Source: a virus
Lineage: Duplodnaviria > Heunggongvirae > Uroviricota > Caudoviricetes
Virus record (IMG/VR): IMGVR_UViG_2529293138_000009
Location: 1 to 20,832 of that record
DNA length: 20,832 nucleotides
Strand: one strand, 5' to 3'
The position numbers were made by a program. Every line of letters begins with the position of its first letter. Position 1 is the stretch's first letter. Below, piece by piece: positions 6,001 to 9,000 of this stretch.

Positions 6001-9000
6001 CCGTCTTTTCCTGTGGCGGGTTCTGTTGCTGGTGGATGTGAGGCAACGGCGCAAGATTTTTTGTGCGCTGCTTCAGTATGCTGGTGGCTGTCTGCTCTCC
6101 CGGTACGATGTCGCTCTCGCGGTACACAGAGCGGATTTTTTCCGCACGTAACCCCAGAGAACGACGTAATACTGCCTCCGGTAGTGCGTCCGCTACCTGA
6201 TTGCAGACCGCCCACCAGGATAATTCAGCCAGCGATAATTCCCGTTCCTGTGTACCGCTTATTGCGTGACGTATGACGTCAATCATCCAGGCTGTCAGAT
6301 TTTGTTGAGCAAGCTGCCCGAGTGATTCGGAGGTCTGGTCACGCAGCTGGTTGTCACAATGCCAGCACAACACCATCGCACCGGTGCCGTAACGATGTAT
6401 GACGGTTTCACTGTGATGGTAGTCACCATGAGGGCACTGGCAGGATTTAACATGACGCAGGAGCCAGTCAGACAGTGCACCAGCGCCGCCGGCAGCACGA
6501 ATCACCCGATCATCGCTGAAAAATGGCAGTAATGATTTGTCTTCCGCCAGCGGCTGGCGAACGGCAGAAACGACTCCGGACGGTAAACCACGCATGCTTT
6601 TTGGTTCCGGCTCCACCAGCACTCGAGAGTTATGAAATACCTGCATGGATTCACGGCCCGGCTTAAGAACCACCAGCCCAAGTTCCGGTACCGGAACAGG
6701 TCGAAGCAATACCCGCACGTTACCTCCAGATGCGTTGCTGGAATGTGCGGGACGGACGCGGTGGGCGTTCGGAATAAGGGAGTCTGACGTAGATTATCCA
6801 GTGACGATAATCAAGGCTGAGGGCTTTCCTAAACTCATACCCACGTCTGCGGTAGTTCTGAATCAGCCATTCGGCCTGTTCTTCAGTGCAGGGGTCATGC
6901 TGATACCAGTCATATTTGAATGTGTGAGAACGCCGCCCGTGCCTGCTGGCAAAGACGGCTGTATTATCAGAATTGTATAATTTGGTATCGTGCGCCATCG
7001 GTTGTCTCTGCTGGCGCAGCAGGTGCCAGTTGTTCAGGCTGGCATGTGGATTGTAAACCAAGATGCTCAGAAAAAACAAAACCCGCTAAAGCGGGTTTTG
7101 TCAGTACTGAATATCAAGCTGCGTGCTTGCCACTACAACTGCAAAGTGGGATCGGGAAAGGCTTCCCTTTTTTCGCGTGGCGTATTACACCATCTACACA
7201 CACAGAGTAGCGAAAAATGATCTCACATGGACAGCCACATTTGCGACAGGTACCCATTGCCATGATTTCGTTTTCCCTGCTCACCTGTGAATCCACACAG
7301 GTTGCACTTTGTTGGGAGAACCACTACACTTCGCTTACCTACAAAAAATGTTGTGATTGGATTATCTCCATACACTACGGAATGTGTTAGCGCACTTTCC
7401 GCCCCTAAAAGCCCTGTTAGCGCAGGGCTTTTACATATAAAAATCGAACGACATCTGTTGTGTTCTCACTCCAATTGTTTCCAGTACGATATCCGCAAAT
7501 GTATCTGCCTGCCATTCTGCATCCTCAATACGAGTAGGTTCTTTAGCTGAAAAGTGTAAAACTGCTTTGTGTCCAAGAAGCAAATGACCTAGCTCGTGGA
7601 AGATAACAGCAAGTGCATGCTCTTCCCCAAGGCAAGCATTCACATATATTTTATTGGGAACCGTAATTGTTAGAGAAGCGGGGTCACAATGTCCGATAGT
7701 TAGATCATACGTCAGAGCCTCCCACTCCTTGTCGGTCCTGACGTCAAGAGTAACCCCATAAATTGAAAGGCTTTCAAAGAACATATCATAACGCTTTCTT
7801 TTGCGCTTTGAGGCTGTAAGACCAATAGCATTACAGAAGTTTATAGCTCTGTAGGCTATTTCTTCTTCTTGCATCGGTGACACCCTGTTACCTCTCATTT
7901 GATACATAATTACCCCTCATTGTTATTAATCTTTTGCAATAAATCTGCAAAACTCTTTAGCTGTTCCGGAGTAAACTGCGACTTAGCGAATCCCGCTACA
8001 AGCATTTTCTGTTGCTGAGACAAACCGTTTACTGGAACTGAGTCATTCGCAACTGCCGCTAACTCCTGTAACCCTTCAATTTCTACACCTTTGGCCTTGA
8101 AGTAAGAATCAATCTTCTTAACCCACTTCAGAGGTATTTTTTTGCTACCAGTTTCTAAACCGCTAAGAAACGCTGGCGAAGTGCCCAGTTCTTGAGACAT
8201 AGTCAGAAGAGTACTGTCAGTATCAATCCTCGCTTTTCTAACGGCCTTACCGAATTCAGTGAGTGCCATGATTTTATCCTCAATTTGTTGATTTAGCAGA
8301 CTTGCCTAACGCAAGCCTGATGGGCGCTTAAATTCTAATTTCTAAAATTTACCATACACAAAAACAAAGTAAACCTTTTTAGTTAAAAAAAATCTCTTTT
8401 AAGGGAATTTTTTCACAAAAAGAACAAAACCCGCCGAAGCGGGTTAAGTGTGGGTGCATTGAGGATGCCTGACACATCAGAGGTGGCGAGGGATTTCTCC
8501 CCCGCCTGGTCTCTTACTCCTCAGGTTCGTAAGCTGTGAAGACAGCGACCTCCGTCTGGCCGGTTCGGATTCGTACCTCGCAGAGGTCTTTCCTCGTTAC
8601 CAGTGCCGTCACTATGACGGTTAAACAGATGACGATCAGGGCGATTAGCATCGCCTTTTGCTGCTTCATAGCCTGCTTCTCCTTGCCTTTCGGCACGTAA
8701 GAGGCTAACCTACATGTGTTCAGCATGGATTGAGCCTCAGATTAATGTTAAGCGTCTTGCCGGACGCGTAATGTTAACTGGGGCTTTTCTCTGTCTGCCT
8801 TACAGTGGCATGCCCGAGGCAGACAGCCTCAAGCACCCGCAGCCATTCTACTTAACTCCCGTTACCTCGCCAACATGAAATCAATCAGAAAGGCGAACCA
8901 TAAGAACAATAACATCAATTAAATTCATTTTCTCAAATCCTGTTAACGACGCCCATCCGACACTAACAACTTTCATTTATTATACTATTTCCCCATCGAC

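What the first reader, a model, noticed from the sequence alone, without database searches (positions are those of the whole stretch)
8514..8900. Solitary hok-type toxin with a long structured leader but no relBE partner genes
The toxin is HokD/RelF-like, yet the region upstream (8670-9300) contains no relB or relE; I translated it looking for them. The 5' region instead has extended inverted repeats (for example TCTGTCTGCCT...AGGCAGACAG at about 8799-8843) typical of hok mRNA fold-back elements, so an antisense Sok-like RNA on the plus strand around 8690-8800 is plausible. This is a self-contained type I toxin-antitoxin locus carried as prophage cargo.
Basis: partly seen in the sequence, partly recalled or inferred. 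Interest (0 to 1): 0.45.

Follow-up and report, generated by a model that had tools for sequence, protein, structure and literature searches.

The report
Complete hok/mok/sok toxin-antitoxin cassette
This is an intact, already well-known type of small toxin gene (hok) guarded by an antisense RNA (sok), carried in a Shiga-toxin prophage and essentially the same cassette as the annotated and tested hokW-sokW of phages 933W/Sp5, so it is real but ordinary.

Summary
On the minus strand, 8669..8514 encodes a 51-aa Hok identical to E. coli K-12 HokD. No relB or relE lies upstream of it. Unlike K-12, where homology begins only about 16 nt before the hok ATG, this window keeps the whole regulatory leader:
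- a hok promoter;
- a 5' element that pairs with the 3' end (tac/fbi);
- an anti-SD (ucb) that sequesters the mok Shine-Dalgarno;
- an in-frame 70-codon mok;
- a dcb box;
- a 3' protective hairpin and a terminator.

The antisense gene is on the plus strand at 8718-8788, with its promoter at 8683-8711. It is 71/71 identical to the sokW RNA annotated in Stx2 phage 933W. Published sokW probes and promoter-mutation primers match the window exactly.

Rfam scores the leader at 116.9 bits (threshold 59). A 20-sequence alignment shows 98.7% pairing, with 16 compensated pairs.

A complete leader occurs in 4143 of 5426 complete E. coli genomes, against 1173 for the K-12 relE-hokD junction. The K-12 relBE-hokD arrangement is the derived form.

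The host element is an Stx1d prophage. It also carries an unrelated RelB/ParE-family pair 5.4 kb away.

The parts
8845..8873 (-). hok/mok promoter: -35 TTGGCG (8873..8868), 17-nt spacer, -10 TAGAAT (8850..8845)
   Evidence: The consensus scan scores it 9 of 12. It aligns with the promoter region of 933W hokW (TTTGCG/TAGAAT). Homology with most E. coli copies starts at 8874.
8420..8838 (-). Predicted full-length hok mRNA, about 419 nt. The 5' end at 8838 is inferred from -10 spacing and from the first position of the Rfam model. The 3' end is inferred from the terminator.
   Evidence: MFE is -179.4 kcal/mol, z = -8.0. Transcript ends are not measured.
8827..8838 (-). tac element (GGGUGCUUGAGG). 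It can pair with fbi in the full-length form, with ucb in the truncated form, or with 8810-8820 in a nascent metastable hairpin.
   Evidence: The full-length MFE has a helix between nt 1-12 and nt 375-387. A fold truncated at nt 366 gives tac/ucb pairing. The leader-only fold gives the hairpin nt 3-13 / 19-29. These columns are invariant in 19-20 of 20 homologues.
8791..8826 (-). 5' stem-loop: stem 8826..8817 with 8800..8791.
   Evidence: Compensatory changes occur at alignment columns 15/47 and 21/41. The window differs from 933W at 8824 and 8793, which are the two sides of one pair.
8778..8785 (-). ucb / anti-SD (GCCCCAG) that sequesters the mok SD in the full-length fold
   Evidence: MFE helix nt 54-65 with nt 94-106. 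The RNAalifold consensus pairs columns 56-61 with 101-107. Pair 61/101 is A-U in 12 sequences and G-C in 8.
8718..8788 (+). Sok antisense RNA gene, 71 nt: a 14-nt single-stranded 5' tail, a long hairpin, and a 3' U-run
   Evidence: It is 71/71 identical to the misc_RNA sokW of phage 933W, AF125520. The same start offset, 8 nt inside mok, is seen for annotated K-12 sokC. The fold has z = -4.95. The published sokW northern probe YO-592 matches 8718-8747 exactly.
8683..8711 (+). sok promoter: -35 TTGCCT (8683-8688), 17-nt spacer, -10 TAACCT (8706-8711). The -35 overlaps the hok SD on the other strand.
   Evidence: It aligns with TTGCGC/TATCCT of the R1-type locus and is identical to 933W. The 'promoter-less' primer YO-421 of Takada et al. 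changes exactly 8706, 8708, 8711 and 8712. The simple consensus scan does not find it, because the -10 matches only 3 of 6.
8514..8726 (-). mok ORF: 70 codons, in frame with hok, ATG at 8726. Its SD GAGG is at 8738..8735.
   Evidence: It is 66/70 identical to MokW of 933W, with an identical 19-residue N-terminal extension. The ATG and GAGG are conserved in position in homologues.
8717..8723 (-). Loop CUGAACA of the mok-SD/dcb hairpin in the truncated (open) form. It contains a YUNR motif (CUGA) and is complementary to the 5' tail of Sok.
   Evidence: Fold of nt 1-366. The Rfam consensus loop is CUaaACAA. Its role as a U-turn recognition loop is inferred from the R1 model.
8701..8706 (-). dcb box (AGCCUC), which pairs with the mok SD region (GAGGCU, 8738..8733) in the open form
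   Evidence: columns 102-107 pair with 136-140 in 20 of 20 sequences. This is the same stem as in the Rfam consensus structure.
8514..8669 (-). hok toxin ORF: 51 aa plus stop, with SD AAGGAG at 8684..8679
   Evidence: Pfam HOK_GEF at 3e-23. 100% identical to K-12 HokD.
8485..8506 (-). GC-rich hairpin just after the hok stop codon. It is the candidate 3' protective stem-loop of the processed mRNA.
   Evidence: MFE helix nt 333-341 with nt 346-354. Three of its pairs carry compensatory changes in the alignment (helix 14). Its position matches the last hairpin of the 361-nt truncated R1-type mRNA.
8452..8471 (-). fbi element (CAGGCAUCCUCAAUGCACCC), complementary to tac at the 5' end
   Evidence: Inverted repeats I2 and I5. 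MFE helix nt 1-12 with nt 375-387. It pairs in 98.6% of cells across 20 homologues but shows no covariation.
8418..8445 (-). Intrinsic terminator: stem 8445..8428, then a T-run
   Evidence: It is shared with K-12 hokD and strain VG48B2 but absent from 933W.

Best explanation
The region 8418-8873 is a complete, autonomous hok/mok/sok type I toxin-antitoxin cassette of the hokD/hokW lineage, carried as accessory cargo in an Stx1d-converting lambdoid prophage.

Mechanism, by homology to plasmid R1 hok/sok and to the tested hokW-sokW:
1. A promoter on the minus strand makes a stable mRNA of about 419 nt.
2. In the full-length form the 5' end (tac) pairs with a 3' element (fbi), and the mok ribosome-binding site is buried by an upstream anti-SD (ucb). 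The full-length mRNA is therefore neither translated nor bound by Sok.
3. Slow 3' trimming back to the GC-rich hairpin after the hok stop removes fbi.
4. tac then pairs with ucb instead. The mok SD moves into a hairpin with dcb, whose loop (CUGAACA) is exposed.
5. If the unstable 71-nt Sok RNA is present, its single-stranded 5' tail binds that loop and the duplex is destroyed.
6. If Sok is gone, mok is translated, hok translation is coupled to it, and the 51-aa Hok peptide damages the inner membrane.

Shown here: every sequence element, its conservation, and its predicted pairing.

Inferred: transcript ends, 3' processing, Sok instability and toxicity in this host.

Biological role is also inferred. 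The most likely roles are prophage retention and/or helping lysis on induction, as reported for hokW-sokW in Sp5.
For: - Toxin: Pfam HOK_GEF at 3e-23; 100% identity to K-12 HokD.
- Leader: Rfam RF01794 at 116.9 bits against a gathering score of 59, E=2e-26, covering 8838..8664 in hok sense. K-12 hokC, K-12 hokB, an R1-type locus and 933W hokW score 87-118 bits in the same orientation.
- hok promoter and terminator.
- End pairing: in the MFE, z = -8.0, and in an RNAalifold consensus computed independently on 20 homologues.
- Covariation: 98.7% of cells are paired. 16 pairs have changes on both sides, against 9.9 +/- 1.6 in shuffles (0 of 500 reach the observed value) and at most 5 with slid partners.
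- Open form: tac/ucb and SD/dcb appear on in-silico truncation and are conserved.
- Sok: 71/71 identical to annotated sokW, inside a 144-nt block of perfect identity (8792..8649) that includes the promoter, the mok start and the hok start. It folds as a tail plus hairpin, z = -4.95.
- Experiments on the identical sokW region in Sp5 (PMC8621323) showed four things. HokW is toxic. sokW expressed from its own promoter neutralises it. Mutating the -10 (the window's 8706-8711) abolishes protection. Both RNAs are seen on northern blots with probes that match the window exactly.
- R1 mechanism: as summarised in PMC9841398.
- Prophage context.
Against: - No expression, processing or toxicity data exist for this particular locus.
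- The sok -10 (TAACCT) matches the sigma-70 consensus at only 3 of 6 positions and was missed by the consensus scan.
- tac/fbi and tac/ucb are invariant in my alignment, so they are conserved but not supported by covariation.
- Most compensated pairs separate only two lineages (hokD-type and hokC-type), so they reflect few independent events.
- In-silico truncation gives the open form as MFE at nt 366, but at nt 356-358 the metastable-hairpin form is the MFE instead, with close energies.
- Native chromosomal hok loci (hokA, hokB, hokC) failed to mediate post-segregational killing in earlier work, as cited in 10.1101/2025.08.07.668861.
- The Hok C-terminus differs from HokW at 4 residues.
Confidence: 0.9

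Rival explanations
1. The cassette is an inert relic. Like the K-12 chromosomal hok loci, it keeps its sequence but no longer kills or stabilises anything, through a weak sok or hok promoter or an inactive regulatory cycle.
For: [quoted passage not shown] The sok -10 matches the consensus at only 3 of 6 positions. Several phage records label the homologue 'RelF inactive antibacterial toxin protein'.
Against: - No IS insertion, truncation or frameshift is present.
- Every element is intact, and the central 144 nt are identical to the hokW-sokW locus that was shown to be a working toxin/antitoxin pair.
- HokD peptide is toxic when expressed (control in the preprint).
- The structure is maintained by compensatory changes.
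- The cassette is kept in 4143 of 5426 complete E. coli genomes.
Confidence: 0.07
2. The cassette works mainly as an anti-phage (abortive-infection or exclusion) module. It would form a small defence island with the divergent OLD-family nuclease next to it, rather than serving the prophage's own maintenance or lysis.
For: The neighbouring gene at 9304-11115 (plus strand) is an OLD-family ATPase-nuclease: PADLOC Old at 9e-73; Pfam AAA_15 plus OLD-like TOPRIM. The same OLD-hok pairing recurs in four E. coli genomes (hits H1-H4). R1 hok/sok on a high-copy plasmid reduces T4 plating (cited in PMC8621323).
Against: - The pairing with OLD is rare, at 4 of 5426 genomes covering at least 80% of the query, and the two modules recombine independently.
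- The large survey found no enrichment of hok next to defence systems.
- For the near-identical hokW-sokW, the measured effect was to help the phage's own release.
Confidence: 0.15
3. hok here is the third gene of a relB-relE-hok operon, as in K-12 Qin, and the partner genes were simply missed.
For: The Hok peptide is identical to K-12 HokD (RelF). A RelB-family/ParE-family pair does exist in the window.
Against: - tblastn with K-12 RelB and RelE gives no hit better than E = 1.7.
- The 600 nt upstream of hok hold the hok leader, its promoter and non-coding DNA, up to a divergent OLD nuclease gene.
- Homology to K-12 begins only about 16 nt before the hok ATG.
- The RelB/ParE pair is 5.4 kb away, on the other strand, beside the repressor region.
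Confidence: 0.01

Closest known systems
hokW / mokW / sokW of Stx2 phages 933W and Sp5 (VT2-Sakai). Annotated in AF125520 and tested by Takada et al. 2021 (PMC8621323).
   Same: - The same cassette: 92.6% nucleotide identity over 95% of 8420-8875.
- Sok RNA is 71/71 identical, with an identical sok promoter, mok start, hok SD and hok start (144-nt perfect block).
- Mok is 66/70 identical.
- The carrier is of the same kind, a Shiga-toxin-converting lambdoid prophage.
   Different: - The Hok C-terminus is TAYEPEE here and VDYESEK in HokW, so the peptide here equals K-12 HokD.
- The loop of the 5' hairpin differs, and there is one compensated stem pair (8824/8793).
- The window has its own intrinsic terminator after fbi, which 933W lacks.
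- Position in the phage genome differs. Here it lies between the replication/OLD region and the DUF968-RusA-Q block. In 933W it lies near the right end of the map.
hokD (relF) of the E. coli K-12 Qin prophage, downstream of relBE
   Same: Identical 51-aa toxin. The 3' UTR (protective hairpin, fbi, terminator) is nearly identical. It occupies the same general slot in a DicF/DicB-carrying lambdoid prophage, upstream of a DUF968 (ydfU) and Q block.
   Different: K-12 has lost everything upstream of about -16: the hok promoter, tac, ucb, the mok start and the whole sok gene, all replaced by relE. The window has all of these and no relBE next to hok. The K-12 junction is found in 1173 of 5426 complete E. 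coli genomes, and the complete leader in 4143. The literature already treats the K-12 form as the derived one, caused by relBE insertion (PMC6379469).
hok/mok/sok (parB) of plasmid R1, the mechanistic paradigm
   Same: - The same set and order of elements: tac, ucb, Sok target, mok SD, dcb/sok promoter, hok, 3' hairpin, fbi.
- The sok promoter aligns (TTGCGC/TATCCT against TTGCCT/TAACCT).
- Both mRNAs fold with 5'-3' end pairing.
- Both match Rfam RF01794.
   Different: - Hok is only 41% identical.
- Sok is 71 nt here, with a hairpin lengthened by about 16-18 nt.
- tac and fbi differ in a coupled way (GGCGC/GCGCC in R1, GGGUGC/GCACCC here).
- The carrier is a prophage, not a low-copy plasmid, so plasmid-type post-segregational killing is not the obvious role.
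hokC (gef) / mokC / sokC of E. coli K-12 and other Escherichia
   Same: About 75% nucleotide identity along the whole mRNA. mok is in frame. Sok starts at the same offset, and the first 9 nt are identical (GUUCAGCAU).
   Different: SokC is 59 nt and lacks the 16-18-nt hairpin extension. The K-12 copy is disrupted at its 3' side by IS186. It is chromosomal, not prophage-borne.

Membership tests
hok/mok/sok type I toxin-antitoxin (Hok/Gef family) | Toxin ORF of about 50 aa belonging to the Hok/Gef family | tested here: met
   Pfam PF01848 at E=3e-23, 81.6 bits against a cutoff of 22. 51/51 identical to K-12 HokD. NCBIfam Hok models match at 48.5 bits, below their curated cutoff of 73.
hok/mok/sok type I toxin-antitoxin (Hok/Gef family) | mok reading frame with its own SD that starts upstream of hok and overlaps it | tested here: met
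   70-codon ORF from ATG 8726, with GAGG at 8738..8735, 8 nt upstream. The N-terminal extension is identical to MokW. In 15 of the 20 aligned homologues an ATG lies in frame with hok upstream of it.
hok/mok/sok type I toxin-antitoxin (Hok/Gef family) | cis-encoded antisense sok gene with its own promoter, overlapping the mok translation-initiation region | tested here: met
   8718-8788 (plus strand) is 71/71 identical to annotated sokW. The promoter at 8683-8711 is identical to the one inactivated experimentally in Sp5. This is met at the sequence level only; transcription in this host is not testable here.
hok/mok/sok type I toxin-antitoxin (Hok/Gef family) | Conserved hok-leader structure: tac stem, Sok-target hairpin, mok-SD/dcb hairpin, hok-SD hairpin | tested here: met
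   Rfam RF01794 at 116.9 bits against a gathering score of 59, full model 1-157. On 20 homologues the open-form pairs are 88.6% paired, against 32-53% for slid controls.
hok/mok/sok type I toxin-antitoxin (Hok/Gef family) | Pairing of the mRNA 5' end (tac) with a 3' element (fbi) | tested here: met
   12-bp helix between nt 1-12 and nt 375-387 in the MFE. It is recovered by RNAalifold and is 98.6% paired in 20 homologues, but it is invariant, so there is no covariation support within this set. Comparison with R1 shows a coupled tac/fbi difference.
hok/mok/sok type I toxin-antitoxin (Hok/Gef family) | Sequestration of the mok SD by an upstream complementary box in the full-length mRNA | tested here: met
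   Helix nt 54-65 with nt 94-106. It is 100% paired in homologues, with one fully compensated pair (A-U in 12, G-C in 8).
hok/mok/sok type I toxin-antitoxin (Hok/Gef family) | 3' processing to a translatable, Sok-binding truncated mRNA; unstable Sok; killing when Sok is lost | not testable with these tools
   Only in-silico truncation was possible. The open form is the MFE at nt 366 but not at nt 356-358. Experimental support exists for the near-identical hokW-sokW locus.
relBE-hokD operon arrangement (K-12 Qin type) | relB and relE immediately upstream of hok, with a hok that lacks its own leader, mok start and sok | tested here: not met
   No RelB or RelE similarity. The full leader is present where K-12 has relE.

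The most novel reading that the evidence does not exclude
In this prophage the cassette lies inside the early rightward operon and points the same way as it: cro-like gene, replication genes, then hok, DUF968, RusA and Q, all on the minus strand. Prophage induction could therefore send read-through transcription across hok in the sense direction. That transcription would collide head-on with the sok promoter and would make hok RNAs whose tac element is no longer at a free 5' end. Hok release would then be hard-wired to induction. This would give a mechanism for the unexplained RecA-dependent loss of sokW RNA reported for Sp5. Nothing here tests it, and in 933W/Sp5 the cassette sits elsewhere in the genome.
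Probability: 0.12. Interest if true: 0.4.

Novelty: already known. Interest (0 to 1): 0.1.

Why it matters
It matters little for discovery. The cassette is a textbook hok/mok/sok locus whose closest relative, hokW-sokW, has been annotated in the 933W record (AF125520) and was tested in 2021.

Its practical value is for annotation:
- Genome pipelines call only 'hokD' here and leave mok, sok and the leader unannotated.
- The K-12 reference gives a misleading picture of what a normal hokD locus looks like.
- The Rfam family named 'sok' actually matches the hok-sense strand.

For Stx-phage biology, it shows that an Stx1d prophage carries the same induction-responsive toxin module as Stx2 phages, but at a different genomic position.

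Tried and rejected
- I searched the window for K-12 RelB, RelE and Rem by tblastn and found nothing meaningful. The relBE-operon idea was dropped.
- The simple sigma-70 scan did not report a sok promoter. I located it instead by alignment to R1, K-12 sokC and 933W sokW, and by the published mutagenic primer.
- I first read the Rfam 'sok' hit as evidence for the antisense RNA. It is on the hok-sense strand here and in four reference loci whose sok genes are annotated on the other strand. It therefore tests the hok leader, not Sok.
- I looked for covariation in tac/fbi and tac/ucb and found none, because those columns are invariant in the 20-sequence set.
- I did not build my own covariance model of the whole 419-nt mRNA, because it exceeds the tool's size and time limit. 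I used MAFFT, RNAalifold and pair counting instead.
- In-silico 3' truncation did not give a single clean switch point.
- One literature query failed on syntax, and one returned only general Stx-phage papers.
- The expensive protein-homologue, structure-prediction and metagenome tools were not used, because the identity of the locus was settled without them.
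Full report
**What is at the coordinates**

On the minus strand, 8669..8514 encodes a 51-residue peptide. A 70-codon ORF in the same frame starts at ATG 8726. The peptide matches Pfam HOK_GEF at E=3e-23, 81.6 bits against a cutoff of 22. It is 51/51 identical to HokD (RelF) of E. coli K-12.

A second, long-range complementarity joins 8449-8471 to 8820-8841.

**No relBE next to hok**

tblastn with K-12 RelB and RelE finds nothing better than E = 1.7 anywhere in the window. The small upstream ORFs have no Pfam match. The next real gene is a divergently oriented OLD-family ATPase-nuclease at 9304-11115.

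Aligned with K-12, the window is almost identical from about 16 nt before the hok ATG through the terminator. Upstream of that point, K-12 has relE where the window has a 150-nt leader. K-12 is therefore the truncated form and the window the complete one. The literature already says this: relBE inserted into an ancestral hokD locus of about 70 codons (PMC6379469).

In 5426 complete E. coli genomes:
- the complete leader (at least 80% of 8727-8874) occurs in 4143;
- the K-12 relE-hokD junction occurs in 1173.

**Anatomy of the cassette**

mRNA numbering runs from 8838 (nt 1). Window coordinates follow in brackets where given.
- Promoter on the minus strand: TTGGCG, 17-nt spacer, TAGAAT, at 8873..8845.
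- Intrinsic terminator on the minus strand at 8445..8428.
- tac, nt 1-12 (8838..8827), paired to fbi, nt 375-387 (8464..8452).
- A 5' hairpin, nt 13-22 with nt 39-48.
- ucb (GCCCCAG, 8785..8779), paired over the mok SD (GAGG, 8738..8735).
- A 7-bp helix between CUCUUAC (nt 136-142) and GUAAGAG at the hok stop codon.
- A GC-rich hairpin after the stop codon (8506..8485).

The 419-nt RNA from 8838 to 8420 folds at -179.4 kcal/mol, z = -8.0 against dinucleotide shuffles. The pairings listed above are those of its MFE structure.

Two alternative folds are also predicted:
- Folded alone, the leader forms the hairpin nt 3-13 / 19-29. This corresponds to the metastable nascent structure described for R1 (PMC9841398).
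- Truncated in silico at nt 366, the MFE switches to tac/ucb plus a mok-SD/dcb hairpin with the loop CUGAACA, which contains a YUNR motif. At nt 356-358 the metastable form is marginally better, so the switch point is not sharply defined by thermodynamics alone.

**Conservation and covariation**

A genome-collection scan with a Hok alignment returned 77 loci. BLAST against the predicted mRNA sorted them into three groups:
- full-length hokD-type copies, 87-97% identical;
- hokC-type and Pseudocitrobacter copies, 70-76% identical;
- K-12-like truncated copies that start at nt 156.

I aligned twenty full-length sequences (A4). RNAalifold, run without reference to the window's own fold, recovered the end pairing, the 5' hairpin, ucb/SD, the coding-region helices and the 3' hairpin.

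Pair counting on that structure gave:
- 98.7% of cells paired;
- 16 pairs changed on both sides, against 9.9 +/- 1.6 in shuffles, with 0 of 500 shuffles reaching the observed value;
- at most 5 such pairs when partners are slid by 1-3 columns.

Two caveats apply. tac/fbi and tac/ucb never vary in this set, so they are conserved rather than covarying. Most compensated pairs separate two lineages, so they reflect few independent events. The open-form helices are 88.6% paired, against 32-53% for slid controls.

**The Rfam hit**

RF01794 ('sok') matches 8838..8664 at 116.9 bits (gathering score 59, E=2e-26), but on the minus strand, which is hok sense. The same is true of K-12 hokC, K-12 hokB, an R1-type plasmid locus and 933W: in each the sok gene is annotated on, or by its antisense nature lies on, the opposite strand.

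The model's consensus ends in the hok SD and AUG. Its structure is the tac stem, the Sok-target hairpin and the SD/dcb hairpin. The hit therefore certifies the hok leader in its open conformation, not the antisense transcript itself.

**The antisense gene**

Annotated sokC of K-12 starts 8 nt inside mokC. The same offset in the window gives 8718.

Phage 933W (AF125520) carries annotated mokW, hokW and a 71-nt sokW. The window's 8718-8788 is 71/71 identical to it. It lies in a 144-nt block of perfect identity (8792..8649) that also holds the sok promoter, the mok start, the hok SD and the hok start.

The promoter is TTGCCT (8683-8688), a 17-nt spacer, then TAACCT (8706-8711). It aligns with TTGCGC/TATCCT of the R1-type locus. 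The consensus scan missed it because the -10 matches only 3 of 6 positions.

The predicted Sok folds as a 14-nt free 5' tail plus a long hairpin and a U-run, z = -4.95. The tail is complementary to the CUGAACA loop.

**Experimental anchor**

Takada et al. 2021 (PMC8621323) worked on hokW-sokW of Sakai prophage 5. They showed that:
- HokW is toxic;
- sokW from its own promoter neutralises it;
- a '-10-less' mutant loses protection;
- both RNAs are detectable;
- mitomycin C causes RecA-dependent loss of sokW and production of membrane-located HokW;
- deleting the locus halves phage release.

Their sokW probe (YO-592) and hokW probe (YO-597) match the window exactly. Primer YO-422 also matches the window exactly. 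Their mutagenic primer differs from the window only at 8706, 8708, 8711 and 8712, inside the hexamer I call the -10. The window's antitoxin side is thus identical to a tested one. Its toxin differs from HokW at four C-terminal residues and equals K-12 HokD, which is itself toxic when expressed (control in 10.1101/2025.08.07.668861).

**Context**

The window is an Stx1d-converting lambdoid prophage:

| Feature | Coordinates (strand) |
|---|---|
| integrase | 19807-20832 (+) |
| DicB | 16500-16793 (+) |
| DicF | 16379-16430 (+) |
| YdaS/YdaT-type early genes | 13617..12893 (-) |
| DUF977 | 11710..11288 (-) |
| OLD nuclease | 9304-11115 (+) |
| hok cassette | 8418-8873 (-) |
| XRE regulator | 8269..7910 (-) |
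| ImmA/IrrE-like peptidase | 7907..7431 (-) |
| DUF968 | 6718..5669 (-) |
| RusA | 5656..5285 (-) |
| Q | 5295..4924 (-) |
| stx1d A and B | 3177..1942 (-) |
| holin | 1657..1358 (-) |
| lysozyme | 995..462 (-) |

No complete E. coli genome in the collection matches more than 65% of the window in a single place, consistent with a mosaic prophage.

The cassette behaves as a separate mosaic unit:
- Most E. coli copies share homology only from 8874 downward.
- Four genomes share the OLD side, but only down to about 8418.
- 933W shares about 8874 to about 8446 and carries it at a different place in its genome.

hok genes are already known to be enriched in prophages.

**Verdict**

One qualification applies: a RelB/ParE-family pair lies elsewhere in the window (14053-14578, plus strand).

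The locus is a complete member of the hok/mok/sok family, essentially the hokW-sokW cassette with a HokD-type toxin. It is already known, so interest is low.

The only speculative angle is positional. The cassette is co-oriented with the early operon between the replication genes and Q, which might couple Hok release to induction by read-through and promoter collision. This is untested.

Noticed in passing
window 1942-3177 (-): stxA (3177..2221) and stxB (2211..1942) pass NCBIfam's subtype-specific cutoffs for Stx1d: 737.2 bits against 725, and 205.4 against 199.5. The window is therefore part of an Stx1d-converting prophage.
   Followed up: partly
window 14053-14578 (+): A type II toxin-antitoxin pair lies beside the repressor region: a RelB-family antitoxin (NF050103, E=1e-23) followed by a ParE/RelE-family toxin (Pfam ParE_toxin, 4.7e-16; probable start at ATG 14300). 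It is unrelated in sequence to K-12 relBE and is 5.4 kb from hok.
   Followed up: partly
window 9304-11115 (+): A 603-aa OLD-family ATPase/TOPRIM nuclease (PADLOC Old, 9e-73) is divergent from hok. The same OLD-hok pairing occurs in only four complete E. coli genomes.
   Followed up: partly
window 7431-8269 (-): An XRE-type HTH protein (119 aa) and an ImmA/IrrE-like M78 peptidase (158 aa) lie directly downstream of the hok terminator. They sit where K-12 Qin has rem and strain VG48B2 has a hypothetical gene. Their function here is unknown.
   Followed up: no
window 8664-8838 (-); also L003, L004, L005, L083: The Rfam family RF01794, named 'sok antitoxin', matches the hok-sense strand in every locus tested. 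That is opposite to the annotated sokC, sokB and sokW genes. The model describes the hok mRNA leader rather than the Sok RNA.
   Followed up: yes
window 8718-8726 (+) versus L003 553-561 (+): The first 9 nt of the predicted Sok tail (GUUCAGCAU) are identical to K-12 SokC, and the target loop is the same. E. coli genomes carry a median of 3 and up to 12 such leaders. Cross-talk between Sok RNAs of different copies is conceivable.
   Followed up: no
window 8529-8531 (-): The Tyr47 codon of hok sits in a UACG context (GCUUACGAAC). This is the kind of site reported to undergo TadA A-to-I editing (Tyr to Cys) in hokB, hokC, hokD and hokE mRNAs. It is conserved in nearly all aligned homologues.
   Followed up: no
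window 1669-1861 (-) and 16379-16430 (+): There are two further Rfam hits above threshold: STnc100 (64 bits) between stxB and the holin gene, and DicF (76.7 bits) upstream of dicB.
   Followed up: no
window 3955-4779 (-): A 274-aa Rce1-like CAAX-protease-family membrane protein is encoded between Q and stxA.
   Followed up: no
loci L015, L024, L030, L036, L069 (genome-contig scan): Near-identical Escherichia-type hok loci appear in assemblies labelled Veillonella, Acinetobacter, Xanthomonas, Streptomyces and Vagococcus, mostly on short contigs. These look like contamination rather than real hosts.
   Followed up: no
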